Virus record (IMG/VR): IMGVR_UViG_3300022917_000008
Span: 32,001-96,000 of that record
Direction: 5' to 3' (one strand)
Length of the DNA: 64,000 nt
DNA from: a virus
Lineage: Duplodnaviria; Caudoviricetes
A model generated the notes under the pieces. That model worked only from the letters and a program-made list of their open reading frames with translations. It ran no database searches and had not been told where the DNA came from. Positions 44,094-56,857 of the stretch are shown here, piece after piece; the first letter of the stretch is position 1, and each line of letters starts with the position of its first letter. The position numbers were made by a program, and so were the translations under genes.

Positions 44094-44096
44094 GGT

Positions 44097-44192: not shown

Positions 44193-44215
44193 CAGGTTCC
44201 TAAGCAATAAGACTA

Positions 44216-44255: not shown

Positions 44256-44257
44256 AT

Positions 44258-44329: not shown

Positions 44330-44332
44330 CAA

Positions 44333-44405: not shown

Positions 44406-44406
44406 C

Positions 44407-44580: not shown

Positions 44581-44642
44581 CTCATTGGTAGAGCTTGTCC
44601 CTTACATGGATAGAGTAGGGAGTTCGATTCTCTCAGGGGGTA
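44571..44642 (+). tRNA. tRNA-Val (TAC)
   Basis: TGTCC-CTTACAT-GGATA; GCCCCTT/AGGGGGT. Confidence 0.85.
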
Positions 44643-44647
44643 CTAAT

Positions 44648-44719
44648 GCACCTGTAGCTCAATGGTAGAGCTGCAAACTTCTAATTTGCAGGCTGGAAGT
44701 TCGACCCTTCCCAGGTGTT
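44648..44719 (+). tRNA. tRNA-Arg (TCT)
   Basis: GCAAA-CTTCTAA-TTTGC; GCACCTG/CAGGTGT. Confidence 0.9.
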
Positions 44720-44725
44720 CTATAA

Positions 44726-44798
44726 GGCCAGTTAGCTCAGTGATAGTAGCAAGAAGCTGTTAACTTCTAGGTCCTAGGTTTGATCCCTAGACTGGCCT
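44726..44798 (+). tRNA. tRNA-Asn (GTT)
   Basis: AGAAG-CTGTTAA-CTTCT; GGCCAGT/ACTGGCC. Confidence 0.9.
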
Positions 44799-44840
44799 CA
44801 GATATTTTGTTCTTTGGAATAAACTTCATACATTTGTATT

Positions 44841-45230
44841 GTGACACAAAGAGAACAAACAATAGCAACCAAGTTCCTATATTTGATAGGAGTAACTAAG
44901 GGGCAGATATTTGCCAAGTGTAAGAACTGGCAGTCAGCTAGAACAACCATAAGGAGACATGCTGTGAAGATATATGAGACCTCAGGGAAGCCAAAAGCAT
45001 GTAACTCTTGTGGATATGATAAGCATTATGAAATATGTCACATAAGGGCTGTGTCTGACTTTCCAGATGAAGCCTTAGTTGAAGAGATAAATAGTATAGA
45101 CAACCTGATGGCACTATGTCCAAACTGTCATTGGGAGTTTGACAATTTAGATTGTGGGGTGGATGTAACGGTAACACAAGACTCTCATAAGGTCTTAATT
45201 GACAGTTCGATTCTGTCCCCCGCAACGTAA
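44841..45230 (+). CDS. HNH endonuclease, 3' end overlapping a tRNA
   Basis: CNSCG...EICHI...NSIDNLMALCPNCHWEFD. Confidence 0.85.
   Translation: MTQREQTIATKFLYLIGVTKGQIFAKCKNWQSARTTIRRHAVKIYETSGKPKACNSCGYDKHYEICHIRAVSDFPDEALVEEINSIDNLMALCPNCHWEFDNLDCGVDVTVTQDSHKVLIDSSILSPAT
45153..45225 (+). tRNA. tRNA with CAT anticodon (Met-like)
   Basis: AGACT-CTCATAA-GGTCT; TGTGGGG/CCCCGCA. Confidence 0.8.
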
Positions 45231-45327
45231 CACAACAAAACTTGGAGCACAAGTATCTACTCATAAAAGGAGTGCTTAGGGCATAGGCTGGTGACTTCAG
45301 TAATAACCCTTCCAGTGAGAGTAGATT

Positions 45328-45399
45328 AGTACTATCGTCTAGTGGCTAGGACATTGCACTTTCACTGCAATAAAGGGGGATCGAAACCCCCTAGTACTA
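45328..45399 (+). tRNA. tRNA-Glu (TTC)
   Basis: TTGCA-CTTTCAC-TGCAA; AGTACTA/TAGTACT. Confidence 0.9.
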
Positions 45400-45406
45400 C
45401 AACCAT

Positions 45407-45483
45407 AGCCTCAGGGGCTGCTAGAAGTGGCCACTCCCCTGTCACGGGAGAATATCAGGAGGGTTTGAATCCCTTTGGGGCTG
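45407..45483 (+). tRNA. tRNA-Asp (GTC)
   Basis: CTCCC-CTGTCAC-GGGAG; AGCCTCA/TGGGGCT. Confidence 0.85.
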
Positions 45484-45484
45484 C

Positions 45485-45616
45485 ATGAAAGAGACATTCA
45501 ACAGGATATGGAATGATCCAGTGGGATCAGATATCATAGCTGGACTGATAGTGTTAGTAATAGCATTTGTACTATCCAGAGTATTCAACATCAAGATTCC
45601 TCATTTTGACCCTTAG
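45485..45616 (+). CDS. Small single-TM protein
   Basis: MKETFNRIWNDPVGSDIIAGLIVLVIAFVLSRVF...; TAG stop inside the next tRNA. Confidence 0.55.
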   Translation: MKETFNRIWNDPVGSDIIAGLIVLVIAFVLSRVFNIKIPHFDP

Positions 45617-45679
45617 CTCAATAGGTAGAGCAGGATACTCATAATATCAAGGTAGTGGGTTCAAATCCCTCAGGGTCAA
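45607..45679 (+). tRNA. tRNA with CAT anticodon (Met, or Ile2 if lysidine-modified)
   Basis: GATA-CTCATAA-TATC; TGACCCT/AGGGTCA. Confidence 0.8.
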
Positions 45680-45691
45680 CAAACTAACATT

Positions 45692-46471
45692 ATGTTCTAC
45701 GTATTGCAAGAGAATGTTTTCAAGGAGTCCCATCATGAACTAATAATGAACTGGATGGAAAAGGCTGGAATAGAGCATGAAGTAATCAAGTTCAGACCTT
45801 TCACAGACACATTAGAAGTAGAGACTAAGAGGAAGGACATATGGTTATGGGGATCAGTTAGTGCATCCAGGATAGCTGAGAAGTACGGATGGTCTCCTGG
45901 TAGTATGTACAATGACAATCATGACCTTGAGGTCTACTCCAAGTACTATGGTGAGAACATGCTAAACCATGATGGTGTGGTAATGAGAGTTACTGATCCA
46001 CTCCCAGATGGTTTAGTCTCATTCTTTGCTAGACCAACTAAGGATACTAAGGCATTCACAGGACAGGTCTTTGATGCTAAGGAATGGAATGAATGGGTAG
46101 ATGATATGACTAGGGCAGGCTTAGTTAGAAGCTTCAGTAAGGATACTAAGGTACTACTAGCGCCTCTCAAGTTGATACAGCAAGAGGTAAGGTGCTGGGT
46201 GATAGGAGGTAAAGTAGTGTCTGCAAGTAGATATAAGATGCATGACAGGATACAATACCAGAACTATGATGATGAGACTTTCTACACTGACTTTGCCCAG
46301 AAGATGGCAGACATTTATTGTCCAGCAGAAGCCTTTGTGATAGATGTATGTTTGGCTGAGGGAGAACTTAAAGTGGTAGAAATCAACTGCATAAACTGTT
46401 CTGGTTTCTATCATATGAACGTAGATAAAGTAATGAGTGCTCTTGAGACTCATTTTGGCAATGTCACATAG
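45692..46471 (+). CDS. ATP-grasp domain protein (DUF4343-like)
   Basis: FARPTKDTKAFTGQV, EVRCWVIGGKVV, FVIDV, VVEINCINCSGFY. Confidence 0.8.
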   Translation: MFYVLQENVFKESHHELIMNWMEKAGIEHEVIKFRPFTDTLEVETKRKDIWLWGSVSASRIAEKYGWSPGSMYNDNHDLEVYSKYYGENMLNHDGVVMRVTDPLPDGLVSFFARPTKDTKAFTGQVFDAKEWNEWVDDMTRAGLVRSFSKDTKVLLAPLKLIQQEVRCWVIGGKVVSASRYKMHDRIQYQNYDDETFYTDFAQKMADIYCPAEAFVIDVCLAEGELKVVEINCINCSGFYHMNVDKVMSALETHFGNVT

Positions 46472-46533
46472 CTCAATGGTTGAGCACCAATCTGATAAGT
46501 TGGGGGATGTAGGTTCAAATCCTACTGTGACAA
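46462..46533 (+). tRNA. tRNA-Ile (GAT)
   Basis: CCAAT-CTGATAA-GTTGG; TGTCACA/TGTGACA. Confidence 0.9.
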
Positions 46534-46536
46534 CTA

Positions 46537-47074
46537 TGAAACAAGAAATACTAGATGCAGGATGGAAGTACTATCAGAGCCCATATCTAGCTGAGAAGTA
46601 CAGAGAGGGGGTATATGAAAAGGGCAACTACTGGATGAAGATAAATGAAGATAGCAGAGACATAACAGTGATTGCACAAGACCCAGTAAAGCTACTAGAT
46701 GAGGGATGGGTATACCCAGAGAATTTTAAACTCTGTGTTCCTTATAAAGGGCCCAAAACACTAGAAGGCTTGGATAAACTACTAGATTTATGATGCTCCA
46801 ATTGAACCCTATACTACCAGTTTTCGTTCCTAGGTTCAACATAGAGGGATTTGCCTTTCTTGTAACTAGGGAATCACAAGAGCATTATACAATCTTCACT
46901 GTGGCCTTAGACAATGGTGAGATATGGGACCTAAGTAACAGGGAGGTAAGGTTTTGTGTTAATCACACTATGGACAGATCATTTATTAACAAGGGGGACA
47001 CAATATTCAAAGATGCTTTTAGACCACATAACAGGGCTGTTCCTGATGATAAAACACAGGAGAAGGGTAGTTAG
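46537..47074 (+). other. Two small hypothetical genes (46537-46793, 46790-47074)
   Basis: MKQEILDAGW... and MMLQLNPILPVF... joined by an ATGA overlap. Confidence 0.6.
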
Positions 47075-47176
47075 GTTCAAGGTACCCAGGGCTAAGGTAA
47101 TGCAGGTATACAGGTTCTCTAGGCCCAATGCCAAGGCTTTGTACTTAGGGCTGGGCAGGTTCATCTTTATCAACTA

Positions 47177-47246
47177 GGGCTAGATGCCAATGGCAGGTCA
47201 ACTCCCTTGCAAGGAGATTGTTTGGGTTCGACTCCCACTATGTCCA
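47177..47246 (+). tRNA. tRNA-Ala (TGC), irregular acceptor stem
   Basis: CTCC-CTTGCAA-GGAG; G3-U70 present; TGGG-TTCGACT-CCCA. Confidence 0.75.
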
Positions 47247-47302
47247 CTAATTTAATCCCAAGTATGGAGTTAATTTTGTATCTTTATTTGTAAAGATATA
47301 CT

Positions 47303-48673
47303 ATGGCTACTGCAACAATAAATTGGGTACCCACCAATGGAAGTGGGTATGAAATATGGTATGGTAAGCTAACTATGGTTGGCACTACTTTCTTACCTCC
47401 TTCTACAGGCTGGATACAAGCTCCTGGTTCACCTTTTGATTCTACTCTGGGTACAGCTACTATCAATGGACTGGATGACAACACTCAGTACAGGATAGTA
47501 ACTAGGGCTGACTGTACATCTGCTGACAGTCCATGGATTGATAAGAGTGTGGACAAGATAGTCTGCCCTACTTTCACTGTAGTAGCTAATCCAGTAGGTG
47601 GAACAGATGTGGGAGCTTCAATCACAGCAAACATTAGCCTGTCTAATATTGTTGAATTTGGATTGATAGTCTCCTCAGTTACTCTCACTGTCAAGAAGAC
47701 AAGTGATTCTTCAGTAGCAGCAACTAAGGTATTCTCTGCTCCATATACAGACACTACTCTCACTAACACATTCACATCTTTACTTACTAATACCAGTTAC
47801 ACAGTATATCTGACTTTGCATGATAGTGTGAATTCAGTGGATGTTACATGCACAAATCATGCTGTAACAACACTTGCATTCATACCACCTCCTACATGTA
47901 CAGCTCCAACATTCTCTATTAGCAATATCACACAATCTTCTGCCTTAGTTACAATAACATCAACTCTTCTAACTGGGGACACATATGATATTTCTATCAA
48001 TGGTGGATCATCCTATGTCTATACAGGACTAACTGGGGCAACATTCAGTCTTACAGGACTAACCCAGGGCACTAATTATGTAGTTGTGGTAAGGAGGAAC
48101 TGTGCAGCTGGTAATCAAGGCATTAGCACAAGTCAGACATTCACTACTGCAAGTAACATCATACCAGCAACTATACAAGCTAATAGGAGTAATGGACAGA
48201 TCAATACTGGTGGTGGACCAAGGTGGCAGTATTCAATGGTAATAACATTCCAACAACCTACACCATTCCCCATTACTATTTACTTTGGTCAGTCTGTGAT
48301 TGTAGGACAAGTAGGTGGAGGACAGTGTAGGTACAGTCAGGGATATGATATGTATACACCTCCAACTACAGGACCAATAGCTTGTTGTTTTGGTGGATGT
48401 ACATATCCAGCTCCAAACTCTAACAAGCCTTGGAGGATAGATGTACCTGCAGGTGTGGTCACATATACAGTACCATTTGACACTGCATTCAGAGATGGGG
48501 TCACTCATGCTGACTTGCAACAAGTGTGGTGTGTACAGGAGCCTGTGGGCACAGGTGCAGTGGATTACATTAGTGATTTGTGGATGAAGATTACTGCTCC
48601 TTCAGGATATTTCTGTAACTTCACTCCTGTACCTGGAGCACATACATCAGGGATAACAATACACAATCTATAA
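47303..48673 (+). CDS. Thr-rich protein with fibronectin type III-like repeats (possible virion decoration/adhesion)
   Basis: GLDDNTQY, SLLTNTSY and GLTQGTNY FN3 signatures. Confidence 0.75.
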   Translation: MATATINWVPTNGSGYEIWYGKLTMVGTTFLPPSTGWIQAPGSPFDSTLGTATINGLDDNTQYRIVTRADCTSADSPWIDKSVDKIVCPTFTVVANPVGGTDVGASITANISLSNIVEFGLIVSSVTLTVKKTSDSSVAATKVFSAPYTDTTLTNTFTSLLTNTSYTVYLTLHDSVNSVDVTCTNHAVTTLAFIPPPTCTAPTFSISNITQSSALVTITSTLLTGDTYDISINGGSSYVYTGLTGATFSLTGLTQGTNYVVVVRRNCAAGNQGISTSQTFTTASNIIPATIQANRSNGQINTGGGPRWQYSMVITFQQPTPFPITIYFGQSVIVGQVGGGQCRYSQGYDMYTPPTTGPIACCFGGCTYPAPNSNKPWRIDVPAGVVTYTVPFDTAFRDGVTHADLQQVWCVQEPVGTGAVDYISDLWMKITAPSGYFCNFTPVPGAHTSGITIHNL

Positions 48674-48674
48674 T

Positions 48675-49652
48675 ATGAGTTTGATTAAGGATTTCTGCAA
48701 ATGGTTCAATGGGGAAGAGGATGTTGACAATACCCTCTATGTGATTACAGTGGTATTCAATCCTTTCAATTTCAAGTCCAGGTACAAGTTGTACAGGGAG
48801 TTCAGGGAGTACATGTCTACACAGAAGAATGTGAGGCTTCTAACAGTAGAAGTAGCACTAGGGGATAGGCCATTTAGAGTAACTAGGGCCAATAACTCTT
48901 GGAATGTGCAACTAAGGACTGAGGAAGAGATGTGGCACAAGGAGGCAGCTATTAATAGAGGGTTCAAACATCTATTACACTTGGTACCTAATGCCAAGTA
49001 TGTTGGATGGTTTGATTCTGATGTTAGGTTTGCTAATCCAGACTGGGTTAAGGAGACTATTCATGCCCTACACAGGTACAAGATAGTCCAGCCCTTCTCA
49101 CAAGTTGTATACATGGATGCAAAGTATGAAGAGTTGTGGCATACACCAAGTGCACTGAAACACTACCATAACAAATTAGGATACTATCAATATCCCCAAG
49201 TACCTCCTGGGTATCTATGTGGAGGACATCCAGGGTTAGCTTGGGCTGCAAGAGTAGATACTTTCAGGAAACTAGGAGGACTAATGGACTTCTGTATAGC
49301 AGGATCAGCAGACACACACATGCTGAATGCACTACTGGGAGATGTCAACATATTCTACAAACCTGGTATGACACAGGTGTTCAGGACTGAGCTTAAGAAG
49401 TGGCAGGACAAAGCAGATGAGCATGTTAAACAAAATATAGGCTACGTCAATGGAATCTGCTATCATTACTGGCATGGGAAGAGTGAGAAAAGGGGATATG
49501 AGAAGAGGTGGGACATAATGAACTTTCATCAATTTGACCCTTCTACTGACATTGTGAGGGGTCATAATGGACTATGGAAGTGGGCTGGAAACAAGCCCCA
49601 GTTAGTCTATGATCTAAGGAAATCAATGTCAGAAAGGAATGAAGATGAGTAA
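48675..49652 (+). CDS. Glycosyltransferase-like protein (GT-A)
   Basis: WHKEAAIN.G, WFDSDV (DxD), GHPGLAWA, HYWHG. Confidence 0.7.
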   Translation: MSLIKDFCKWFNGEEDVDNTLYVITVVFNPFNFKSRYKLYREFREYMSTQKNVRLLTVEVALGDRPFRVTRANNSWNVQLRTEEEMWHKEAAINRGFKHLLHLVPNAKYVGWFDSDVRFANPDWVKETIHALHRYKIVQPFSQVVYMDAKYEELWHTPSALKHYHNKLGYYQYPQVPPGYLCGGHPGLAWAARVDTFRKLGGLMDFCIAGSADTHMLNALLGDVNIFYKPGMTQVFRTELKKWQDKADEHVKQNIGYVNGICYHYWHGKSEKRGYEKRWDIMNFHQFDPSTDIVRGHNGLWKWAGNKPQLVYDLRKSMSERNEDE

Positions 49653-50184
49653 TACACTGATAACACAGGACAGGTTAACAACTTTCTCCTTGCTAAGGCC
49701 CCTAGTTCCTAAAGAAGGATTAGTAGCTGAGGTAGGAGTATATAAGGGAGGATCACTTAAAGTACTAGCTAAACTGTTTGATGACACAGCAGTACTAGGA
49801 TTTGATACATTTGAGGGGTTACCTAAGGAGCAATGGATTGAGAGTGAGATACATGAGCCTGGTGACTTTCATGATACTACAATGAAGGATGTGCAGGAAT
49901 TCTTGCATGATTGTCCAAACGTGGTACTGATCAAGGGACTATTCCCAACATCAGCTAAGGGAATGGATGATTACAAGTTCAGGCTAGTACATTTGGATAC
50001 AGACTTTTATCTGGGTACAAAGTTATCACTAGAGTGGTTTTGGCCAAGGATGGAAAGTGGAGGTATTATAGTGTTTGATGACTATAAGTGGCCCAATTGT
50101 CCAGGTGTAGAACAAGTACTGAAGGAGTTTGGAGAACCTGTGCACCAAGCAGCAGATTATCAGGCATACATAAAGAAACCATGA
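49639..50184 (+). CDS. TylF/MycF-like SAM-dependent O-methyltransferase
   Basis: AEVGVYKGGS, GFDTFEGLP, KGLF, VHLDTD.Y, GGIIVFDDY. Confidence 0.85.
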   Translation: MKMSNTLITQDRLTTFSLLRPLVPKEGLVAEVGVYKGGSLKVLAKLFDDTAVLGFDTFEGLPKEQWIESEIHEPGDFHDTTMKDVQEFLHDCPNVVLIKGLFPTSAKGMDDYKFRLVHLDTDFYLGTKLSLEWFWPRMESGGIIVFDDYKWPNCPGVEQVLKEFGEPVHQAADYQAYIKKP

Positions 50185-50912
50185 CATACATACAGAACAA
50201 GGACGGACTTATAGGAGACTTCCTGGGATCAGTACCTGCAATGCAGGAGCTAGGTAGAAGGGACAAGCTAGTGGTACAGATTCATCCAGAGGCATTGAAG
50301 TTAGTACCTCTTATATACAACCCAGATGGGATTGTATTTACTGAGATAGCAACTGGGCAAGTGTCACATACAATCTACTCAGCTACTGCATTCCAGATTG
50401 CAACAGCAAAGAATCTGTACATGTCACAAGCATTCTTTGAGCAGGTGGGATTGGAGATTCCCCTAGTTGCTCCTAAAGCTGATTTAAGGCTCATAGAGGT
50501 CCATACTCCAACTTATGACTACATCATATCACCTTTTGCTAGAAGCCTACCAAGCAGCCAGAAATTGCCTAAGAGTGAATGGAAGCAGTTGGTGGATAGC
50601 ATGCCTAACAAGAAGTTCTGTGTAATTGGTACAACAGTGCATGATGATCCTGAGTTCATAGTAGGACCTAATGTGGAGACTAGATTTGATATGGACTTCA
50701 ACTATGTAGGTAGCCTGCTAAGGAATGCAACTAAGGGACTCATCAGTGTTGTGACAGGCACTTCTCATTTAGCATTTCACCTAGGAGTGAAGAACTGGAT
50801 ACTTAATAATCAGGACTTTGCATGGGGTACTAATCCAGATGGAGTATCAATCAGGGATCATATTCCAGCTCTATTTGGAGAAAAGATTAGAGAATATTTG
50901 GAAAATAGCTAG
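50181..50912 (+). CDS. GT9-like (heptosyltransferase-like) glycosyltransferase
   Basis: IGDFLGSVPAMQEL, ISPFA, ISVVTGTSHLA; start moved to ATG 50181 (ATGA overlap). Confidence 0.7.
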   Translation: MTYIQNKDGLIGDFLGSVPAMQELGRRDKLVVQIHPEALKLVPLIYNPDGIVFTEIATGQVSHTIYSATAFQIATAKNLYMSQAFFEQVGLEIPLVAPKADLRLIEVHTPTYDYIISPFARSLPSSQKLPKSEWKQLVDSMPNKKFCVIGTTVHDDPEFIVGPNVETRFDMDFNYVGSLLRNATKGLISVVTGTSHLAFHLGVKNWILNNQDFAWGTNPDGVSIRDHIPALFGEKIREYLENS

Positions 50913-50936
50913 GACTGCACTATATTTGTATTACAT

Positions 50937-51115
50937 GCGGGGGATACTTAGAGAGCCCTGTTCTCTTATAACCCTTTAATACAGCCATAAAAGCTGTCCC
51001 CCGTTCCATGGAGAGGTGCTTCTAAGCTTTAGGTTGGTGTGATCCCAACTCTCTCTGCAAATGGGTAGAAATAGCATAGAGCTGTCAGTTGGGTGTAAGC
51101 CCCACCTACCCACCA
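50937..51115 (+). ncRNA. Three tandem truncated tRNA-like units
   Basis: 50937-51008 GCGGGGG/CCCCCGT-TCCA; 51010-51059 GGAGAG/CTCTCT with a GGTTGG/CCAACT hairpin; 51062-51115 TGGGTAG/CTACCCA-CCA. Confidence 0.6.
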
Positions 51116-51116
51116 T

Positions 51117-51189
51117 GCCTTCCTAGCTCAATTGATAGAGCGTCCATCTCTAAAATGGAAAGATGTGGGTTTGAGTCCCACGGATCGCA
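51117..51189 (+). tRNA. Amber suppressor-type tRNA (anticodon CTA)
   Basis: TCCAT-CTCTAAA-ATGGA; normal D arm and T stem; acceptor GCCTTCC/GGATCGC has two mismatches. Confidence 0.8.
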
Positions 51190-51204
51190 CTTAAACTAAA
51201 CACA

Positions 51205-51567
51205 ATGGCTTAGATTACATCAACATCCAGATTGATAACTATAGTAAGGAGAGACCTTAGTCATGGTTATCAGACAGCACAGACAGGTCATGCAATAGCA
51301 GAATGGGCTTATAACAATCCCAGGACCTTTAGAAGGTGGAGAAAAGAAAGTGGGTACTTAATATGTCTTTCAGTAAGAAACCTAGCAGAGCTAGAGGCAT
51401 TCAACAGAAAGTTATATGACAACAAGATAAAGTACACAGCATTTTATGAACCTGACATTGGAGAGTTTACAGCAATAGCAATAACTCCTTCAACTAAGGC
51501 AGACCAGTTAACTAAGCATCTACAGCTAGCCAATGTAAAGGCTGGCACTAAGGACAAACACAAATGA
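51205..51567 (+). CDS. Pth2-like peptidyl-tRNA hydrolase with in-frame TAG at codon 3
   Basis: IVRRDLSHG...AQTGHA and FYEPDIGEFTAIAI motifs; ATG-GCT-TAG at 51205 is in frame with the ORF called from TTG 51232. Confidence 0.75.
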
Positions 51568-51635
51568 AGCAATTATCCTCATATTATCTCCTAAGTTCCC
51601 TGTTGAATAGACAGGCTGAGATAGTATTGAGTTAA
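51564..51635 (+). CDS. Leader peptide 2 (MKQLSSYYLLSSLLNRQAEIVLS), putative attenuator
   Basis: Codons 4-14 are all Leu, Ser or Tyr; ATGA overlap with the Pth2 stop. Confidence 0.85.
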   Translation: MKQLSSYYLLSSLLNRQAEIVLS

Positions 51636-51660
51636 GTCATTCTTCGGAGACCCTTATACT

Positions 51661-51696
51661 AGCCCTCAGCCTAAAAACTGGGGGCTTTTTGTTTTT
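51661..51696 (+). terminator. Intrinsic terminator of attenuator 2
   Basis: AGCCCTCAG-CCTAAAAA-CTGGGGGCT then TTTTGTTTTT. Confidence 0.85.
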
Positions 51697-51698
51697 AT

Positions 51699-51774
51699 GG
51701 CAGTGTGGGCAAAATGGTAAAGTCGCTTCACTTAGGATGAAGAGGTTCTGAGAGTTCGAGTCTCTCCACTGTCA
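51699..51774 (+). tRNA. tRNA-Leu (TAG), short variable region
   Basis: CTTCA-CTTAGGA-TGAAG; GGCAGTG/CACTGTC. Confidence 0.85.
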
Positions 51775-51777
51775 CAT

Positions 51778-51857
51778 ACCTCCATGGTGAAATTGGTAGA
51801 CGCGACAGACTTAAAATCTGTTCCTTCGGGGTGCCAGTTCAAATCTGGCTGGGGGTA
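51778..51857 (+). tRNA. tRNA-Leu (TAA)
   Basis: ACAGA-CTTAAAA-TCTGT; variable arm CCTTCGGG. Confidence 0.9.
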
Positions 51858-51859
51858 CT

Positions 51860-52258
51860 ATGGATAATAAAACCTACTATAGCTCCATAGCGGAGCTAAA
51901 AGTAATGGCTGATCTAACAGCTAAGCACTATCATATATTCAATCAAGTATCTGGTAAGGCACCATTTGACTTGGTTGCATACAGGGATGGAGAGCTAAGG
52001 AGAGTCAGTGTCAAGAGTTGCAACAAAGACCCTAGGAAGGACGGGGGATTTGTGATAGAAGTTGGCAGGGTAAGAGCCAATAAAACAGAGAATAAGATAT
52101 ACAAGTTTGATCAGTCTGAATGTGATCTGCTGGCCATCTACATAGTCAAAGAAGATAGAATAGTCTATGTGGAGTCAACAGTAGCGCATGATAAAAGGCA
52201 GATCATCATACAAGGAAGGTCCCAGTTGACAGAGGTACATGATCTTGAAAATCACTAG
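51860..52258 (+). CDS. PD-(D/E)XK homing-endonuclease-like protein
   Basis: AELKV...PFDLV......RVSVKS and CDLLAIY; 3' end overlaps tRNA-Ser. Confidence 0.75.
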   Translation: MDNKTYYSSIAELKVMADLTAKHYHIFNQVSGKAPFDLVAYRDGELRRVSVKSCNKDPRKDGGFVIEVGRVRANKTENKIYKFDQSECDLLAIYIVKEDRIVYVESTVAHDKRQIIIQGRSQLTEVHDLENH

Positions 52259-52299
52259 GTCCCTAAAAAGACGTGGGGGTTGAACTCCCCCACCTTCCT
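52214..52299 (+). tRNA. tRNA-Ser (TGA), degenerate D arm
   Basis: TGAT-CTTGAAA-ATCA; long variable arm; GGAAGGT/ACCTTCC. Confidence 0.7.
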
Positions 52300-52307
52300 C
52301 AAACTAA

Positions 52308-52392
52308 GGAGAGTTGGCTGAGAGGCTTAAAGCACCACATTGCTAACGTGGGGGCTGTAATAGGTCCACTAGTTCGAATCTAGTACTCTCCT
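52308..52392 (+). tRNA. tRNA-Ser (GCT)
   Basis: CCAC-ATTGCTAAC-GTGG; GGAGAGT/ACTCTCC. Confidence 0.9.
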
Positions 52393-52398
52393 CTTAAT

Positions 52399-52482
52399 GC
52401 CTACCATGGTAGATTGGATACTACCTGTGGACTGTAAATCCACTGCCCTTGGGCTTATTCAGTTCGATTCTGAAGGGAGGCA
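52399..52482 (+). tRNA. tRNA-Tyr (GTA)
   Basis: GTGGA-CTGTAAA-TCCAC; variable arm GCCC-TT-GGGC. Confidence 0.85.
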
Positions 52483-52504
52483 CATTTTGTTGTATATTTG
52501 TATA

Positions 52505-52765
52505 ATGGAATACAACATCACACCTCAGGCCCTAGTTGATAGGGGATTCAAGTACCATGCACCAGGCATAAGTGGAGCAGACATGTGGCAGGGAATGCCA
52601 TGGTGGATTCATAAGGAGAAGGATATAGGTCTATGCCTTAGAGGGACTACTTCTACAGCAAAGCCTAGAGGACTAAGGTTAGCTGGACATTTCAATACAG
52701 AGGTGAGAACAATAAAGCAGTTAGAAGTTTTGATGGAAATATTTGGTTTGAATCCAAATAGTTAG
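52505..52765 (+). CDS. Hypothetical protein
   Basis: ATG 52505 (MEYNITPQ) follows TATATTTG; the track start lies inside tRNA-Tyr. Confidence 0.65.
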   Translation: MEYNITPQALVDRGFKYHAPGISGADMWQGMPWWIHKEKDIGLCLRGTTSTAKPRGLRLAGHFNTEVRTIKQLEVLMEIFGLNPNS

Positions 52766-52776
52766 TATATTTGATT

Positions 52777-52848
52777 ATGAAACAGACTTGGCAACATACC
52801 TTTACGACACAAACTCCACTAAAAGGAGAAGGGTATCTGTTGTCATAA
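52777..52848 (+). CDS. Leader peptide 3 (MKQTWQHTFTTQTPLKGEGYLLS), putative attenuator
   Basis: Codons 3-14 are all Gln, Thr, Trp, His, Phe or Pro; ATG 3 nt after TATATTTG. Confidence 0.85.
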   Translation: MKQTWQHTFTTQTPLKGEGYLLS

Positions 52849-52883
52849 CATTCCAAGAAAGATTGTAATAATGAAACACTGAT

Positions 52884-52913
52884 ACCCTCCATTCCTGGAG
52901 GGTTTTTTATTTT
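52884..52913 (+). terminator. Intrinsic terminator of attenuator 3
   Basis: ACCCTCCA-TTCC-TGGAGGGT then TTTTTATTTT. Confidence 0.85.
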
Positions 52914-52984
52914 GGGTGGTTGACCAATGGTAGGTCCCTACATTTGGGATGTAGAATTTGCAGGTTCGAGTCCTGTTCACCCAA
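52913..52984 (+). tRNA. tRNA-Pro (TGG)
   Basis: CTACA-TTTGGGA-TGTAG; TGGGTGG/TCACCCA. Confidence 0.9.
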
Positions 52985-52988
52985 CTAT

Positions 52989-53061
52989 GGTGCACAAGCT
53001 AATCTGGTGAAAGCACTAGACTGAAAATCTAGGGAGCTTGGATCAAAACCAAGGTGTACCG
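52989..53061 (+). tRNA. tRNA-Phe (GAA)
   Basis: CTAGA-CTGAAAA-TCTAG; GGTGCAC/GTGTACC. Confidence 0.9.
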
Positions 53062-53062
53062 C

Positions 53063-53494
53063 ATGAAACAATCAAATAGAAAGGATGCTAGAAGGGTCAT
53101 AGACTGTGAAAACTGTGGTAACCCAACAAAGAATGATAGATTCTGTAGTCTATCTTGCTCAGCAGAACATGTATCAAAGGAGCAGTATAGAAAGTTCTTG
53201 AGCAGCCCTGAGGACTTCCAGGGTGAGGAGTACTCTCCTAAGTCCTTTAAGAAGTTTATACTGAAGGAACAGGATTGCAAGTGTAGCATCTGTAGTATAG
53301 ACAATATATGGAATGGTAAGGAACTGGTGTTTGTACTAGATCACATAGATGGAAATCCAGGCAACAATACTAGGGACAACCTTAGGCTAGTATGTCCCAA
53401 TTGTGATAGCCAGTTGGACACATTTAAAAGTGGAAATAAGGGAAGTGGTAGGTACTACAGAACACAAAGAAGATTAGAGGGCAAATCCTCATAA
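53063..53494 (+). CDS. HNH endonuclease
   Basis: CENCG, FCSLSC, LDHIDGNPGNNTRDNLRLVCPNCDSQ. Confidence 0.9.
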   Translation: MKQSNRKDARRVIDCENCGNPTKNDRFCSLSCSAEHVSKEQYRKFLSSPEDFQGEEYSPKSFKKFILKEQDCKCSICSIDNIWNGKELVFVLDHIDGNPGNNTRDNLRLVCPNCDSQLDTFKSGNKGSGRYYRTQRRLEGKSS

Positions 53495-53567
53495 GGCCGG
53501 TTAGTTTATATGACTAAAATACGTCTCTTGTAAAGATGAGTACTGAGTTTGATGCTCAGACTGGCCT
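53495..53567 (+). tRNA. tRNA-Thr (TGT)
   Basis: CGTCT-CTTGTAA-AGATG; GGCCGGT/ACTGGCC. Confidence 0.85.
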
Positions 53568-53573
53568 CTTAAT

Positions 53574-53644
53574 AGCCCTTTAGCACATTGGTAGTGCGTG
53601 GAGCTTTGGACTCCATGAAGTTAGTTCGATCCTAGCAGGGGCTT
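53574..53644 (+). tRNA. tRNA-Gln (TTG)
   Basis: TGGAG-CTTTGGA-CTCCA; AGCCCTT/AGGGGCT. Confidence 0.85.
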
Positions 53645-53651
53645 CTTATAT

Positions 53652-53726
53652 GGTGCTTGTAGCATAAAGGTAATGCACTGCTCTGTGAAAGCAGTGAAGA
53701 GGGATCAATACCCTCCTTGTACCCCA
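53652..53726 (+). tRNA. tRNA-His (GTG)
   Basis: CTGCT-CTGTGAA-AGCAG; G-1/C73 and encoded CCA. Confidence 0.85.
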
Positions 53727-53729
53727 AAC

Positions 53730-53798
53730 ACGTGCTAGGCTATGGTAGCCACCCAGTCTCCAAAACTGAAGGAAGTAGTTCGATTCTACTAGTGCGTG
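53730..53798 (+). tRNA. tRNA-Trp (CCA)
   Basis: CAGT-CTCCAAA-ACTG; ACGTGCT/AGTGCGT. Confidence 0.85.
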
Positions 53799-53883
53799 CA
53801 ATAGAATAGTTTGATAAGCAAACCTATAAAGTTTGCATGTCAAACTATTTTTGTTTATATGAACTAAGACCCATATATTTGTA

Positions 53884-54246
53884 TTGAAGACCAACAATAT
53901 GAGTGTAGACTTAATCAAGGACAAGATAACAGTAAGTGATAAGACTGAGGCACTCAGGCTGCACCTACTTATTAAGTCCTTCCAGACAGGTCTAAACCTC
54001 TCAGAGTCAGACATTAACAGTCTGGTTGAGCTTAGCATAGTAGGGTATAACCCAGAGTTCTTCAAGGCTTGTGTAGACAAGGGCTATTACAAGAGTGAGC
54101 AGACTGTAAGGAATGCCATAGCCAAGATGACTAACATGGGGATACTGTACTACAGGAAGAGAGGGGAAAGGAAGATCAATGAGGACTTCCTACCTAAAAC
54201 AAGTTCAGACAAGGTAATGTTTCAATACTTAGTGGGTAACATATGA
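53884..54246 (+). CDS. Possible winged-helix DNA-binding protein
   Basis: SEQTVRNAIAKMTNMGIL helix-wing pattern. Confidence 0.55.
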   Translation: MKTNNMSVDLIKDKITVSDKTEALRLHLLIKSFQTGLNLSESDINSLVELSIVGYNPEFFKACVDKGYYKSEQTVRNAIAKMTNMGILYYRKRGERKINEDFLPKTSSDKVMFQYLVGNI

Positions 54247-54581
54247 TAGTAAGGGCATCTGAAATATATACTGTAACAGCACTAAGGCATGGATTGGACC
54301 AAGAACTTGTTTCCTCAGTTGGTGAGACAGTGTTCAAGTCCTTGATGGAAAAGATGGTAGTACCTCATGACCTAGCTTATGAGTTGGATCATGTGGGGAC
54401 ATTTGCTATTAGACACAAGAAGTTCTTGGGTAAGCATGCAACCCTTTTGAGTAATAACCCTGACCATCCCTTTGTGTCAACATGGAGGCATGTTATAGAC
54501 ATGGTACAGGACTTCAGAAACACTAAGGCACAATTTCAATCTAGGAGGGCAGAATATGACAGAGCCAAAAAACAAGGCTAA
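54243..54581 (+). CDS. HU/IHF-like DNA-binding protein
   Basis: Helix-helix start followed by YELDHVGTFAIR. Confidence 0.55.
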   Translation: MIVRASEIYTVTALRHGLDQELVSSVGETVFKSLMEKMVVPHDLAYELDHVGTFAIRHKKFLGKHATLLSNNPDHPFVSTWRHVIDMVQDFRNTKAQFQSRRAEYDRAKKQG

Positions 54582-54873
54582 GATCAGCCTTAAGAATATA
54601 GGTAGGTTCTTGCAGGGATACTCCAGGATGTTCTCAGAGACCTTTGGCTTGCTTGAAAAGCACAAACAGGAGCAAGTTATATGGAGATCAGAACAGGCCA
54701 AGGAATGCCTTAAAAATGGCTCCTGCTTGTATTGTGGATGTGACACCCCAGCTAAATTTTATGGAGATGAAGCATGTGAGGACCCTCAAAGGCAATGTTA
54801 CCCTAGTATGATGGATGTACCAACTTGGGAACAGTATAAGGCAGAACATCAAATAACCATTAAAGTAGACTAA
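54556..54873 (+). CDS. Cys-rich hypothetical protein
   Basis: C....SCLYCGC.......C......CYP.MM...WEQYK. Confidence 0.7.
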   Translation: MTEPKNKAKISLKNIGRFLQGYSRMFSETFGLLEKHKQEQVIWRSEQAKECLKNGSCLYCGCDTPAKFYGDEACEDPQRQCYPSMMDVPTWEQYKAEHQITIKVD

Positions 54874-55181
54874 TGGGACAAGAAGTAACAATAAGCCCTA
54901 GTAGGATGGACTTGGGCAAGATAGATAACAAACCCAGAAAGTTCTGGTTTGAAGTCAGGAATAACCACCATGCAACTCTTGACTTAGCAGCTTGGGCCTC
55001 TTGTGGCTGTACTACACCAATAGTAGTCCCTAGTAGGGTTGAACCTGGGCAGACAGCACAACTGAGGGTAGAATTTGATCCCACTGGTAAAAGTGGCCTC
55101 CAGGAGAAGGGAGTGGGAGTAACTTATGTTATAGAGGGCCATCAGAAGAACACAGGAGCAACCTTTGTTGCAAACATCTAA
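54873..55181 (+). CDS. DUF1573-like Ig-fold protein
   Basis: ASCGCTTP....VEPGQT..LRVEFD..GKSG. Confidence 0.8.
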   Translation: MGQEVTISPSRMDLGKIDNKPRKFWFEVRNNHHATLDLAAWASCGCTTPIVVPSRVEPGQTAQLRVEFDPTGKSGLQEKGVGVTYVIEGHQKNTGATFVANI

Positions 55182-55192
55182 AACAAAATACT

Positions 55193-55492
55193 ATGAGTTT
55201 CCACAATCACACACATGAAGAGGGTCATCTATGTGATGACTGCAAGGCAGAATTGAAAGAGGACATTCACCTTATGATCACTATCCTACACTCTCCAGCA
55301 GGGGAATCTACTAGGGACTTGGCTGATAGCCTACTATACAGCTTCCTTATGGAGCTATATGGGGTATGTGACTGTGAGGACCCTGATGAGGATGATGATG
55401 AACAGTCAGATAATGATAGCCCTGTACAAGGTCCTATAATTGGGAACTTGAGGGAGTTCCTCACAGCTATGGGTACACAGCACCACACCTAA
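55193..55492 (+). CDS. His/Cys/acid-rich hypothetical protein
   Basis: HNHTHEEGHLCDDC...CDCEDPDEDDDE. Confidence 0.6.
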   Translation: MSFHNHTHEEGHLCDDCKAELKEDIHLMITILHSPAGESTRDLADSLLYSFLMELYGVCDCEDPDEDDDEQSDNDSPVQGPIIGNLREFLTAMGTQHHT

Positions 55493-55522
55493 TTATCATG
55501 TTGGGGGCCAGTCTAGTCAGGA

Positions 55523-55984
55523 ATGGAAAAGTATTGTCCTAAATGCAAGCAGAAGAAAGACACATCCTTCTTCAGACCTAACAAATCTAGGAAGGATGGT
55601 CTTCAACCTTGCTGCATAGATTGTGATAAGGAATATCAAAGGCAATGGTACCAGAGCAACAAGGAAAAGGTAAAAGCTAAGTCCTTAGTAAGCAATAAGG
55701 TAAATAGAGAAAGAGTACAAGAGATTCTACTAAGGGAACTAGAAGGTAAGAAATGTGAACACTGTGGGGAAGGTGATATACTAGTACTAGAGTTTGACCA
55801 CCTAAGAGACAAGCAGTTCACCATAGGCAATACACAGTGGGAGAGCGAAGACAAAATAATAGAGGAGGTAGGAAAGTGCCAAGTACTATGTGCCAACTGC
55901 CATAGAAGGAAAACTCATGAAGATATGAACACATACAAATGGAGGTATAGCCAAGGGGTAAGGCAGGAGTCTGCAAAACTCTGA
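55523..55984 (+). CDS. HNH endonuclease, 3' end overlapping tRNA-Cys
   Basis: CPKC, CIDC, CEHCG..LEFDHL..KCQVLCANCHRRKT. Confidence 0.85.
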   Translation: MEKYCPKCKQKKDTSFFRPNKSRKDGLQPCCIDCDKEYQRQWYQSNKEKVKAKSLVSNKVNRERVQEILLRELEGKKCEHCGEGDILVLEFDHLRDKQFTIGNTQWESEDKIIEEVGKCQVLCANCHRRKTHEDMNTYKWRYSQGVRQESAKL

Positions 55985-56014
55985 GCGAAGGTTCAATTCC
56001 TTCTACCTCTTCCA
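55941..56014 (+). tRNA. tRNA-Cys (GCA)
   Basis: GGAGT-CTGCAAA-ACTCT; U73 and encoded CCA. Confidence 0.9.
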
Positions 56015-56047
56015 GAAATCCAACAAACCTTAAATAAACCAACACTA

Positions 56048-56120
56048 GCATCAGTAGTATAAAGGCTGATTATACTGCACTTCCAATGCAGGGATGAGGT
56101 TTCGATTACCTCCTGGTGCT
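56048..56120 (+). tRNA. tRNA-Gly (TCC)
   Basis: CTGCA-CTTCCAA-TGCAG; GCATCAG/CTGGTGC; U73. Confidence 0.9.
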
Positions 56121-56137
56121 CAAAAAGAAACCAACTA

Positions 56138-56857
56138 ATGAAGTTTATTGAAAGTACACACAAGTACATTGACGAGGAAGAGAAAGAATATGCCCCAGTT
56201 ACATCTCTACTGAAGAGTTTTCAGGAGAAGGTGGATTGGGATGCAGTAGCAACCAAGAAAGCTAAGAAGGATGGCACAACTAAGGAGGCCTTACTTGCTC
56301 AATGGGCAGACAAGAGAGATAGGGCAGCAGAGAGGGGTACAGCTTACCATAAGCAGAAGGAAGAGGAGTTACTAGGCTATCCCAATGTTGTTGGATACCA
56401 TACAGATCATAGTGGGATTAAGTCTGATGCTGACATGAAGTTAGAGGAAGGCCTGATCTATGTGGAGAAGATGATATGGTCCAAGAAGTATAAGGTGTGT
56501 GGTACAGCAGACTTGGTTGAAGTAGTCAATGGAAAGATCAATATTAAAGACTACAAGACAAATGAAAAGTTGGATTTCGAGTCATGGAAACACCCAAGAA
56601 ATGGATCAAAAAGGCTCCTCTATCCAGTTCAACACCTGGATGACTGCAATTTCAACCTATACCAGCTTCAGGTTAACTGCTATATGTATATGCTACTCCA
56701 GCACAATAGGCACCTTAAGATGGGAGAGATGGAAATCCTCCACGTAGTGTTTGATGAGAACAAGCAGCACAAGGAAACAAGAGTATACCCAGCTATGAAC
56801 TTCCAGAGAGATGTGAAGAACATGTTGGAACAACATCTAAAAACCAGGCATGCTTAG
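56138..56857 (+). CDS. PD-(D/E)XK exonuclease-like protein
   Basis: RGTAYH, CGTADLV, IKDYKTN, YQLQVNCY. Confidence 0.85.
   Translation: MKFIESTHKYIDEEEKEYAPVTSLLKSFQEKVDWDAVATKKAKKDGTTKEALLAQWADKRDRAAERGTAYHKQKEEELLGYPNVVGYHTDHSGIKSDADMKLEEGLIYVEKMIWSKKYKVCGTADLVEVVNGKINIKDYKTNEKLDFESWKHPRNGSKRLLYPVQHLDDCNFNLYQLQVNCYMYMLLQHNRHLKMGEMEILHVVFDENKQHKETRVYPAMNFQRDVKNMLEQHLKTRHA

What the first reader, a model, noticed from the sequence alone, without database searches (positions are those of the whole stretch)
51564..51696. Attenuator 2 (Leu/Ser/Tyr) is translationally coupled to the amber-containing Pth2 gene
SEEN: the leader ATG overlaps the Pth2 stop (ATGA, 51564-51567). It uses five different Leu codons (TTA, CTC, CTA, CTG, TTG), three Ser codons and tandem TAT. 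AGGCTGAG (51613-51620) pairs with CTCAGCCT (51665-51672) and TAGTAT (51622-51627) with ATACTA (51656-51661). The controlled set is exactly the bacterial class II (long variable arm) amino acids. INFERENCE: ribosome loading on this leader may depend on amber readthrough upstream, giving a two-input switch.
Basis: partly seen in the sequence, partly recalled or inferred. Interest (0 to 1): 0.75.

Follow-up and report, generated by a model that had tools for sequence, protein, structure and literature searches.

The report
Leader-peptide attenuator gating phage tRNA genes
A 23-codon mini-gene with a switchable transcription stop sits directly in front of a phage's Leu, Leu, Ser and Tyr tRNA genes and holds 11 Leu/Ser/Tyr codons in a row, so the phage probably makes these tRNAs only when ribosomes read those codons slowly; I found no published case of this control for tRNA genes.

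Summary
These include the ATGA overlap, the codons, both complementary pairs and the Leu/Ser/Tyr set.

The stretch has the full anatomy of a leader-peptide transcription attenuator. The leader ORF carries the run LSSYYLLSSLL. There are 1:2, 2:3 and 3:4 hairpins, and a U-run ends 2 nt before tRNA-Leu.

The run ranks first of 1148 small ORFs in the 155.6-kb phage genome. Two sister leaders, at 44097 and 52777, spell their own downstream tRNA sets.

I found the same design in two unrelated huge phages, LR745206.1 and LR756500.1. There, 5 of 41 upstream ORFs scored P<1e-4; none of 300 label permutations gave more than one.

The Pth2 amber codon is real. It is conserved at codons 2-5 in all seven Pth2 loci I could read.

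The proposed dependence on amber read-through (the two-input switch) is untested and not required. The leader ATG has a normal autonomous start context, and a sister leader in a huge phage starts right after a tRNA with no upstream ORF.

No close relative's DNA could be fetched, and no expression data exist.

This scan has noted the same design before, on this genome and on other phages. Seven literature searches and two papers read found no published account.

The parts
50921..50931 (+). Promoter-like motif TATATTTGTAT (Bacteroidota-type -7 element TAnnTTTG). It is the likely start of the transcription unit that carries tRNA-CUA, Pth2 and the leader.
   Evidence: Exact copies occur only at 50921, 52493 and 53874 in the window, all intergenic and on the + strand. 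Promoter function is inferred.
51117..51190 (+). tRNA with anticodon CUA (amber suppressor), 15 nt upstream of the Pth2 ATG
   Evidence: ARAGORN; Rfam tRNA 55.2 bits. A tRNA-CUA also lies upstream of Pth2 in L003, L005 and L006.
51205..51567 (+). Pth2 (peptidyl-tRNA hydrolase 2) gene with an in-frame TAG at codon 3 (51211-51213). Its TGA stop overlaps the leader ATG.
   Evidence: PF01981, E = 4.5e-10. Start-context score. Early TAG conserved in 7 of 7 loci.
51564..51635 (+). Leader ORF, 23 codons: MKQLSSYYLLSSLLNRQAEIVLS*
51573..51605 (+). Regulatory run of 11 Leu/Ser/Tyr codons (TTA TCC TCA TAT TAT CTC CTA AGT TCC CTG TTG)
   Evidence: Rank 1 of 1148 small ORFs for the set {L,S,Y}. Reached in 0 of 300 label permutations.
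51578..51631 (+). Hairpin 1:2. Region 1 (51578-51590, inside the run) pairs with region 2 (51618-51631). An inner hairpin lies at 51594-51617. Energy -18.9 kcal/mol.
51613..51672 (+). Antiterminator 2:3. 51613-51620 pairs with 51665-51672, 51622-51627 with 51656-51661, and 51629-51631 with 51653-51655. Energy -19.9 kcal/mol.
   Evidence: one search gives z = -2.40.
51661..51698 (+). Intrinsic terminator. The 9-bp stem is AGCCCTCAG/CTGGGGGCT (51661-51669 with 51678-51686), -15.5 kcal/mol. The U-run TTTTGTTTTTAT ends 1 nt before tRNA-Leu.
   Evidence: Terminator scan; folds.
51699..51775 (+). tRNA-Leu(UAG), the first gated gene
51778..51858 (+). tRNA-Leu(UAA)
51860..52258 (+). PD-(D/E)XK endonuclease ORF inserted between the tRNA genes, probably a selfish insert
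   Evidence: PF11645, E = 1.8e-14. Other inter-tRNA ORFs are absent in a strain seen in run X2.
52213..52299 (+). tRNA-like element with acceptor, anticodon (loop CTTGAAA, UGA = Ser), long variable and T arms, but a degenerate D arm. It may be a tRNA-Ser(UGA) or its remnant.
   Evidence: 24.6 bits to the tRNA-Sec model, below threshold. Not called by ARAGORN even at lowered thresholds.
52308..52393 (+). tRNA-Ser(GCU)
52399..52483 (+). tRNA-Tyr(GUA), the last gated gene. The next promoter-like TATATTTGTAT follows at 52493.

Best explanation
Window 51564-51698 is a ribosome-mediated (leader-peptide) transcription attenuator. It decides whether RNA polymerase coming from the tRNA-CUA/Pth2 unit reads on into tRNA-Leu(UAG), tRNA-Leu(UAA), tRNA-Ser(GCU) and tRNA-Tyr(GUA).

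The proposed mechanism follows; the anatomy is shown, the function is inferred.
1. A ribosome translates the 23-codon leader.
2. If charged Leu, Ser and Tyr tRNAs are plentiful, it runs through the 11-codon run to the stop at 51633. There it covers region 2 (51613-51631). Region 3 is left free to pair with region 4, and the terminator 51661-51686 plus U-run stops transcription 2 nt before tRNA-Leu.
3. If any of these tRNAs is short, the ribosome stalls inside 51573-51605. Region 1 is then covered and region 2 is free. Region 2 pairs with region 3 (antiterminator 51613-51672), the terminator cannot form, and the tRNA genes are transcribed.
4. With no ribosome at all, hairpins 1:2 and 3:4 form and transcription stops.

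The result is negative feedback that matches phage tRNA supply to decoding demand. Demand could rise from phage codon usage, host shut-off or tRNA-cleaving host defences.

The ATGA overlap lets ribosomes that finish Pth2 re-start on the leader, but the leader can probably also be initiated on its own.
For: Anatomy
- The ORF, the 11-codon run, hairpin 1:2 (-18.9), antiterminator 2:3 (-19.9), terminator 3:4 (-15.5) and the U-run abutting the tRNA are all present.
- In ribosome-footprint-constrained folds of the nascent transcript, the terminator's 5' arm is sequestered with the A site on codons 2-13. It is free from codon 15 on, so the flip sits exactly at the end of the run.

Specificity
- The longest-run matrix of leaders against tRNA sets is 13, 11 and 12 on the diagonal and at most 4 off it. 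Each leader ranks first of 1148 small ORFs for its own set.
- All amino acids of each set are represented.
- The L2 score was reached in 0 of 300 label permutations.

Recurrence
- Two sister modules in the window (44097, 52777) have the same architecture.
- Ten further modules occur in the huge phages LR745206.1 and LR756500.1. Examples are MTTTQQIQQQQINQTD before three tRNA-Gln genes, SYESYYEE before Glu/Tyr, and a 20-residue T/M/N/L/V/I run before an Asn, Arg, Leu, Val, Ile, Thr, Met array.
- In the newly fetched loci, 5 of 41 upstream ORFs score P<1e-4, against a mean of 0.06 in permutations; 0 of 300 permutations reach this.
- The seven huge-phage leaders I folded, and all three window leaders, show the same structural flip at the end of the run.
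- Arg codons follow the anticodon: AGA/AGG with Arg(UCU), and CGC/CGA with Arg(ACG).

Other points
- No room or motif for a separate promoter lies between the terminator and the tRNA.
- No terminator-like site lies inside the gated block.
Against: - There are no expression, 3'-end or ribosome data. No RNA run holds the stretch.
- No relative close enough to test covariation in this particular element could be fetched.
- Three of the 11 run codons (TCC, TCA, TCC) are not read by any ARAGORN-called phage tRNA. Only a degenerate tRNA-like element with a UGA loop could read them. The match is therefore at the level of the amino acid, not strictly the anticodon.
- In the full-length equilibrium model, a ribosome on codons 7-11 still leaves the terminator favoured. 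Only the nascent-transcript model gives a clean switch.
- The U-run is interrupted by a G, and the stem has one G-U pair and an 8-nt loop.
- The host is unknown. Bacteroidota is inferred from the promoter motif and Shine-Dalgarno depletion.
Confidence: 0.82

Rival explanations
1. Two-input switch. The leader is translated only by ribosomes handed over from Pth2 through the ATGA overlap. Pth2 translation needs suppression of TAG 51211 by the phage tRNA-CUA. Read-through into the tRNA genes would then need both amber suppression and a shortage of Leu/Ser/Tyr-tRNA. Without suppression the untranslated leader gives default termination, or Rho polarity acts on the untranslated Pth2 mRNA.
For: - The ATGA overlap is real.
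- TAG lies at codon 3 of the best-supported Pth2 start, and an early TAG is conserved in 7 of 7 Pth2 loci.
- tRNA-CUA lies 15 nt upstream on the same strand.
- The fold without a ribosome predicts termination, P(terminator) = 0.98.
- All three window leaders follow an ORF closely: gaps of 19 and 11 nt, and an overlap of 4 nt.
Against: - The leader ATG has a start context typical of this genome's genes: 63rd percentile of genes and 97th of random ATGs.
- A leader of the same kind in L021 starts 33 nt after a tRNA with no ORF before it, and others have their own promoter-like motifs.
- TTG 51232 could give amber-independent Pth2 translation.
- In distant phages Pth2 is not followed by a leader.
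- No data exist on suppression or coupling.
Confidence: 0.2
2. Ribosome stalling on the leader acts by another route than the intrinsic terminator. Candidate routes are exposure to Rho, altered RNase E or RNase P processing, or altered stability of the tRNA precursor. The hairpins would then be processing or stability elements.
For: - The codon match argues for a stalling sensor but does not fix the output step.
- The terminator abuts the RNase P site of tRNA-Leu.
- The full-length equilibrium folds are ambiguous for codons 7-11.
Against: - The terminator has the canonical stem plus U-run.
- The antiterminator overlaps its 5' arm.
- The flip coincides with the end of the run in 10 of 10 leaders folded, 3 in the window and 7 in huge phages.
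Confidence: 0.08
3. The element is an ordinary terminator that ends the tRNA-CUA/Pth2 unit. The small ORF is either chance or a small hydrophobic peptide with a function of its own, and the tRNAs are made by leaky read-through.
For: LSSYYLLSSLL looks like a low-complexity hydrophobic segment. Terminators with similar arms occur in unrelated phage contigs that have no tRNAs nearby.
Against: - The expected number of such runs in the whole six-frame translation is about 0.005 (0.20^11 x 0.8 x 311,000 codon positions; frequency). This one lies exactly before the cognate tRNAs.
- Three of three window modules and the huge-phage modules show the same match with non-hydrophobic peptides.
- Label permutations give 0 of 300.
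Confidence: 0.04

Closest known systems
Leader-peptide transcription attenuators of enterobacterial amino-acid operons (trpL, hisL, leuL, pheL; multivalent thrL and ilvL/ivbL)
   Same: It has a short ORF with a run of regulatory codons, mutually exclusive 1:2, 2:3 and 3:4 hairpins, and an intrinsic terminator before the first regulated gene. The leader stop codon is placed so that an unstalled ribosome masks region 2. Like thrL and ilvL, it senses several amino acids at once.
   Different: The regulated products are tRNA genes, not biosynthetic enzymes. The element is phage-encoded and lies inside an operon, overlapping the stop of an upstream gene. The amino-acid set is defined by the tRNA genes behind it. 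It has no sequence relation to these leaders: no Rfam leader family matched.
pheM leader of the E. coli pheST operon (attenuation of an aminoacyl-tRNA synthetase gene by tRNA-Phe availability)
   Same: A leader peptide senses the charged tRNA level and controls a component of the translation apparatus rather than a biosynthetic pathway (from my own knowledge).
   Different: pheM controls a protein-coding gene and senses a single amino acid. Here the tRNAs themselves are the output, which gives direct feedback on the tRNA pool.
T-box riboswitches
   Same: Both use a tRNA-dependent choice between terminator and antiterminator upstream of translation-related genes.
   Different: A T-box binds uncharged tRNA directly and needs no ribosome or ORF. 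No T-box match was found, and there is no specifier-loop architecture here.
Stress-induced long tRNA array (trn operon) of Anabaena sp. PCC 7120
   Same: It is an accessory tRNA gene array that stays silent by default and is switched on when translation is impaired (PMC8421152).
   Different: That array is controlled by the protein repressor TrcR (PMC10272220). Neither paper mentions a leader peptide or attenuation.

Membership tests
Leader-peptide (ribosome-mediated) transcription attenuator | Short translatable ORF directly upstream of the regulated genes | tested here: met
   A 23-codon ORF at 51564-51635. Its start context scores at the 63rd percentile of the genome's genes.
Leader-peptide (ribosome-mediated) transcription attenuator | Run of codons cognate to the regulated product | tested here: met
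   Eleven consecutive Leu/Ser/Tyr codons lie before the Leu, Leu, Ser and Tyr tRNA genes. The run ranks 1 of 1148 ORFs, and 0 of 300 permutations reach it. Three TCN Ser codons are not covered by a called phage tRNA.
Leader-peptide (ribosome-mediated) transcription attenuator | Intrinsic terminator between the leader and the first regulated gene | tested here: met
   A 9-bp stem with 6 G-C pairs plus TTTTGTTTTT at 51661-51696; the tRNA starts at 51699.
Leader-peptide (ribosome-mediated) transcription attenuator | Antiterminator that shares bases with the terminator's 5' arm, and a 1:2 hairpin that includes the regulatory codons | tested here: met
   2:3 is -19.9 kcal/mol and overlaps 51661 and 51665-51669. 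1:2 is -18.9 kcal/mol and includes codons 6-9.
Leader-peptide (ribosome-mediated) transcription attenuator | Geometry: a stalled ribosome frees region 2, and a ribosome at the stop codon masks it | tested here: met
   In footprint-constrained folds the terminator arm is sequestered for codons 2-13 and free from codon 15 on. The full-length equilibrium model is less clean.
Leader-peptide (ribosome-mediated) transcription attenuator | Conservation or covariation of the ORF and helices in relatives | tested here: inconclusive
   No DNA of close relatives could be had, and the strains laid were about 99% identical. Analogous, non-homologous modules in this phage and two huge phages support the design.
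Leader-peptide (ribosome-mediated) transcription attenuator | Read-through regulated by charged-tRNA supply in vivo or in vitro | not testable with these tools
   This needs an experiment. No RNA run is listed.
Rfam leader families (Leu, His, Thr, Trp leaders) and T-box | Match to the family covariance model | tested here: not met
   No such match at the gathering threshold or at E <= 1 across 43900-56300.
Obligate translational coupling through overlapping stop and start | Overlap of the upstream stop and the downstream start | tested here: met
   ATGA at 51564-51567.
Obligate translational coupling through overlapping stop and start | The downstream start lacks an initiation signal of its own | tested here: not met
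   The A-rich, G-poor -22..-1 context scores 2.65 bits. That is the 63rd percentile of genes and the 97th of random ATGs.
PTH2 peptidyl-tRNA hydrolase (the upstream gene) | Match to Pfam PF01981 above the gathering score | tested here: met
   40.2 bits against a cut-off of 23; residues 1-99 match profile positions 3-114 of 115.
Genome-wide TAG reassignment (code 15-like phage) | In-frame TAG codons spread through conserved genes | tested here: not met
   The large genes (4080, 2320, 1560, 966 and 928 aa) have 0 in-frame TAGs. ATG..TAG before long ORFs is no commoner than ATG..TAA or ATG..TGA. Pth2 is the one clear case.

The most novel reading that the evidence does not exclude
The attenuator is a true AND gate. 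Ribosomes reach the leader only after reading through the conserved early amber codon of Pth2 with the phage's own suppressor tRNA. The Leu/Ser/Tyr tRNA genes would then be switched on only when the phage's recoding machinery is working and these tRNAs are short. That would link stop-codon suppression, peptidyl-tRNA rescue and tRNA supply in one circuit.
Probability: 0.2. Interest if true: 0.88.

Novelty: new variant of a known kind. Interest (0 to 1): 0.8.

Why it matters
How phages control their own tRNA genes is largely unknown. These genes are usually read as a fixed codon-usage supplement or as spares against tRNA-cleaving host defences.

A leader peptide that spells the amino acids of the tRNAs behind it would make tRNA supply self-adjusting, a demand sensor built from a textbook mechanism. 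The design recurs in this leaf-litter phage and in two unrelated huge phages, so it may be a general rule for tRNA-rich phages.

It gives directly testable predictions using reporter or in vitro attenuation assays. It also gives a simple sequence signature for annotating tRNA operon boundaries. The conserved early amber codon in phage Pth2 genes adds a second, separate regulatory puzzle next door.

Tried and rejected
- I could not fetch the contigs encoding the 67-77% identical Pth2 relatives P0002-P0011, which would have been the direct conservation test.
- **Relatives by protein.** The search for related loci with Pth2 or the 720-aa neighbour in viral contigs found only the phage itself or 41% relatives. 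The metagenome scan found one identical contig that ends inside Pth2, plus distant loci without the leader. The genome-contig scan found nothing.
- **Relatives by DNA.** blastn against GenBank phages matched only generic tRNA-Leu. A terminator-pattern scan of IMG/VR gave five look-alike terminators with no tRNAs nearby, all unrelated.
- **G001.** This is the genome of L003, a distant Pth2 relative. It has only 2 tRNAs and so is uninformative.
- **Sequencing runs.** No RNA holder was listed. The DNA runs laid hold near-identical strains. One contig in X2 shares the terminator's 3' arm and tRNA-Leu but differs upstream; only 30 letters of it were shown.
- **Negative control.** Mycobacteriophage Bxz1, with Pth2 next to a 26-tRNA array, shows no leader signal.
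- **Rejected readings.** I rejected a promoter between the terminator and the tRNA because there is no TAnnTTTG motif and no room. I rejected genome-wide TAG recoding.
- **Gln identity of the suppressor.** The Q aligned with the TAG in P0005, P0008 and P0009 may itself be a TAG translated under code 15 by the source pipeline. Similarity of the tRNA to the other phage tRNAs was uninformative.

Full report
**Context.** The window is bases 32001-96000 of a 155,657-bp IMG/VR virus record rated complete. The same phage occurs in leaf-litter and soil metagenomes.

All its tRNA genes lie in the window. ARAGORN tRNAs plus a tmRNA. Rfam adds tRNA-Phe(GAA) at 52989 and a weak tRNA-Ala(UGC) at 47178. All 20 amino acids are therefore covered.

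Shine-Dalgarno-like motifs are depleted before its genes (6% against 12% background). Positions -15 to -9 are A-rich and G-poor. The motif TATATTTGTAT occurs exactly three times, all intergenic within the tRNA island. From these I infer a Bacteroidota-type host; this is inference only.

**The observation.**
- The Pth2 gene (PF01981) ends with TGA at 51565-51567, overlapping the ATG at 51564.
- The ORF 51564-51635 reads MKQLSSYYLLSSLLNRQAEIVLS*. Codons 4-14 are TTA TCC TCA TAT TAT CTC CTA AGT TCC CTG TTG.
- The two complementary pairs quoted are exact.
- A terminator-like hairpin (51661-51686, 9 pairs, 6 G-C) with TTTTGTTTTT follows. tRNA-Leu(tag) starts at 51699.
- Then come tRNA-Leu(taa), a PD-(D/E)XK endonuclease ORF, tRNA-Ser(gct) and tRNA-Tyr(gta). 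The next promoter-like motif is at 52493.

**Is it more than chance?** {L,S,Y} make up 20% of residues in the phage's long ORFs. A run of 11 is the longest among all 1148 small ORFs (15-45 aa) of the genome; the next best is 9.

Two more modules of the same build lie in the window.
- ORF 44097-44192 contains AIDMANREIRVKK. It precedes a terminator that abuts Lys, Lys, Val, Arg, Asn, Met, Glu, Asp, Met, Ile and Ala tRNAs.
- ORF 52777-52848 contains QTWQHTFTTQTP. It precedes a terminator that abuts Pro, Phe, Thr, Gln, His and Trp tRNAs.

The matrix of longest runs (leader against tRNA set) is 13, 11 and 12 on the diagonal and at most 4 elsewhere. Each leader is the genome-wide top scorer for its own set. 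With amino-acid labels permuted, the score of leader 2 was never reached in 300 trials.

**Structure.** The 135-nt stretch folds at -38.6 kcal/mol, z = -3.13. Its default fold has two elements.
- The first is a 1:2 hairpin. Codons 6-9 of the run (51578-51590) pair with 51618-31, at -18.9 kcal/mol.
- The second is the 3:4 terminator, at -15.5 kcal/mol.

The alternative 2:3 helix (51613-51672, -19.9 kcal/mol, z = -2.40) uses 51661 and 51665-51669 of the terminator's 5' arm.

I modelled a ribosome as a 29-nt unpaired footprint.
- In the nascent transcript, cut before region 4, the terminator's 5' arm is sequestered while the A site is on codons 2-13. It becomes free from codon 15 onward.
- In the full-length equilibrium model the terminator probability falls to 0.02-0.2 for codons 4-6 but stays high for codons 7-11. 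The clean switch therefore rests on the kinetic picture.
- Without a ribosome the terminator forms (P = 0.98).

**Comparative evidence.** Close relatives exist: Pth2 proteins 67-77% identical. Laid metagenome contigs were about 99% identical. Covariation in this element is therefore untested.

Instead I looked at other tRNA-rich phages found through Pth2. In the huge phages LR745206.1 and LR756500.1, strong terminators directly precede tRNA arrays. Each terminator is preceded by a small ORF that spells the array:

| Leader (or its run) | tRNAs that follow |
|---|---|
| MNTITNIASYESYYEEG... | Glu x4, Tyr x2 |
| ...ISIAVIGNGAGAI... | Ile(UAU), Gly, Met, Gly |
| MTTMNLNMTMNLTLNVVNITLCNIR... | 19-gene array of Asn, Arg, Leu, Val, Ile, Thr, Met |
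| ...PVNPQPQDQDP... | Pro, Asp x4, Pro |
| MTTTQQIQQQQINQTD | Gln x3 |
| MKTLSTYPLGQAQTLGTPPITG | Ala, Leu, Pro, Tyr, Gln, Gly, Thr, Gly |
| ...DNRRDDNN... | Asn, Asp, Arg(UCU) |
| ...SKSSSRSSS...IR... (codons CGC, CGA) | Arg(ACG), Ser |

In the newly fetched loci, 5 of 41 upstream ORFs score P<1e-4, against a mean of 0.06 under label permutation; 0 of 300 permutations reach this. Mycobacteriophage Bxz1 shows no signal.

I ran footprint-constrained folds on ten leaders, three from the window and seven from the huge phages. All flip from sequestered to free exactly at the end of the matched run.

**The Pth2 and amber part.**
- ATG 51205 has a better start context than TTG 51232 (71st against 29th percentile of genes). 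The frame has no ATG after the TAG.
- In all seven loci with a Pth2 relative whose DNA I hold, the gene begins ATG, then 1-3 codons, then TAG. The conserved L[IV][IV][IV]TR follows 4-9 codons later.
- A tRNA-CUA lies just upstream in four of the seven.
- The genome as a whole is not TAG-recoded.

The amber-containing Pth2 is therefore real and conserved.

The claim that the leader depends on it is another matter.
- The leader's ATG has a normal autonomous context: 63rd percentile of genes and 97th of random ATGs.
- One huge-phage leader starts after a tRNA with no ORF before it.
- Distant Pth2 genes are not followed by leaders.

Coupling is physically possible. It would add an AND condition, because an untranslated leader terminates by default. 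It is unshown, and I put it at about 0.2.

**Weak points.**
- TCC, TCA and TCC in the run are not read by a called phage tRNA. A tRNA-like element at 52213-52299 has a UGA loop but a degenerate D arm (24.6 bits, below threshold; not called by ARAGORN). It might cover these codons.
- The use of five Leu codons is not significant for this leader alone (P = 0.28). Codon diversity is significant only over the three leaders together (P = 0.004).
- There are no expression data.

**Comparison with what is known.** The mechanism matches classical leader-peptide attenuation, and every structural criterion I could test is met. There is no sequence membership in any Rfam leader family or in T-box.

What is new is the target (tRNA genes), the bar-code relation between the leader and the tRNA set, and the phage setting. 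Seven literature searches found no description.

The nearest published case is the stress-induced tRNA array of Anabaena. It is controlled by a protein repressor, and neither paper mentions a leader peptide or attenuation.

Earlier notes of this scan read attenuators 1 and 3 of this genome the same way, as well as similar modules in other phage genomes. Those notes are not independent evidence.

**Verdict.** This is a leader-peptide attenuator of phage tRNA genes (confidence about 0.82). The amber-coupled two-input idea remains open (about 0.2).

Noticed in passing
window 51205-51213; L003 about 3968-3980; L005 about 728-742; L006 about 3974-3982; L007 about 84-92; L016 about 19974-19982; L017 about 19971-19982: Every Pth2 relative whose DNA I hold starts ATG, then 1-3 codons, then an in-frame TAG, 4-9 codons before the conserved core (7 of 7 loci at 41-47% identity). 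A tRNA-CUA lies just upstream in four of them. In L016 the next ORF also starts MK-TAG-I. This looks like a conserved amber gate on phage Pth2.
   Followed up: partly
window 52213-52299: A tRNA-like element has a perfect 7-bp acceptor stem, a T arm, a long variable arm and the anticodon loop CTTGAAA (UGA, Ser), but a degenerate D arm. It overlaps the 3' end of the PD-(D/E)XK ORF. It scores below the Rfam threshold and is not called by ARAGORN. If functional, it would read the TCA codon of leader 2, and the TCC codons only by extended wobble.
   Followed up: partly
window 44109-44147 compared with the tRNA genes at 44258-47246: Read backwards, the run of leader 1 (KKVRIERNAMDIA) mirrors the order of the tRNA genes behind it (K K V R N M E D M I A). 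The longest common subsequence is 9 of 11, P = 0.0004 by shuffling. Leaders 2 and 3 go the same way but are not significant alone. Unexplained.
   Followed up: partly
window 45681-46462 and 46534-46789: A strain in metagenome run X2 lacks these two inter-tRNA ORFs precisely; contigs join across them. This fits the ORFs scattered among the tRNA genes being mobile inserts.
   Followed up: no
window 50937-51116: About 180 nt of structured-looking RNA lies between the promoter-like motif at 50921 and tRNA-CUA. It contains a 14-codon ORF and the complementary stretches GCGGGGGA and TCCCCCGT. I did not examine them.
   Followed up: no
window 12002-12121 (-) and 15688-15751 (-): Rfam finds two further tRNA matches far from the island. 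One is 120 nt long with an insert of about 45 nt in the anticodon region. The other is truncated, with a TCT anticodon loop.
   Followed up: no
whole genome (codon usage): There is strong avoidance of CpG-containing codons: TCG 0.00, ACG 0.01, GCG 0.01, and CGN about 3% of Arg. Leader 3 nevertheless uses ACG, and the three leaders together use more distinct codons than expected (P = 0.004).
   Followed up: partly
L016 31451-31522: In huge phage LR756500.1 a Ser/Leu/Tyr-rich ORF (MTPLDLSENSSLNSDSSSSLLYS) ends 5 nt before tRNA-Ser(gct) and tRNA-Ser(tga), with no terminator between. It may be a different kind of coupling, or chance.
   Followed up: no
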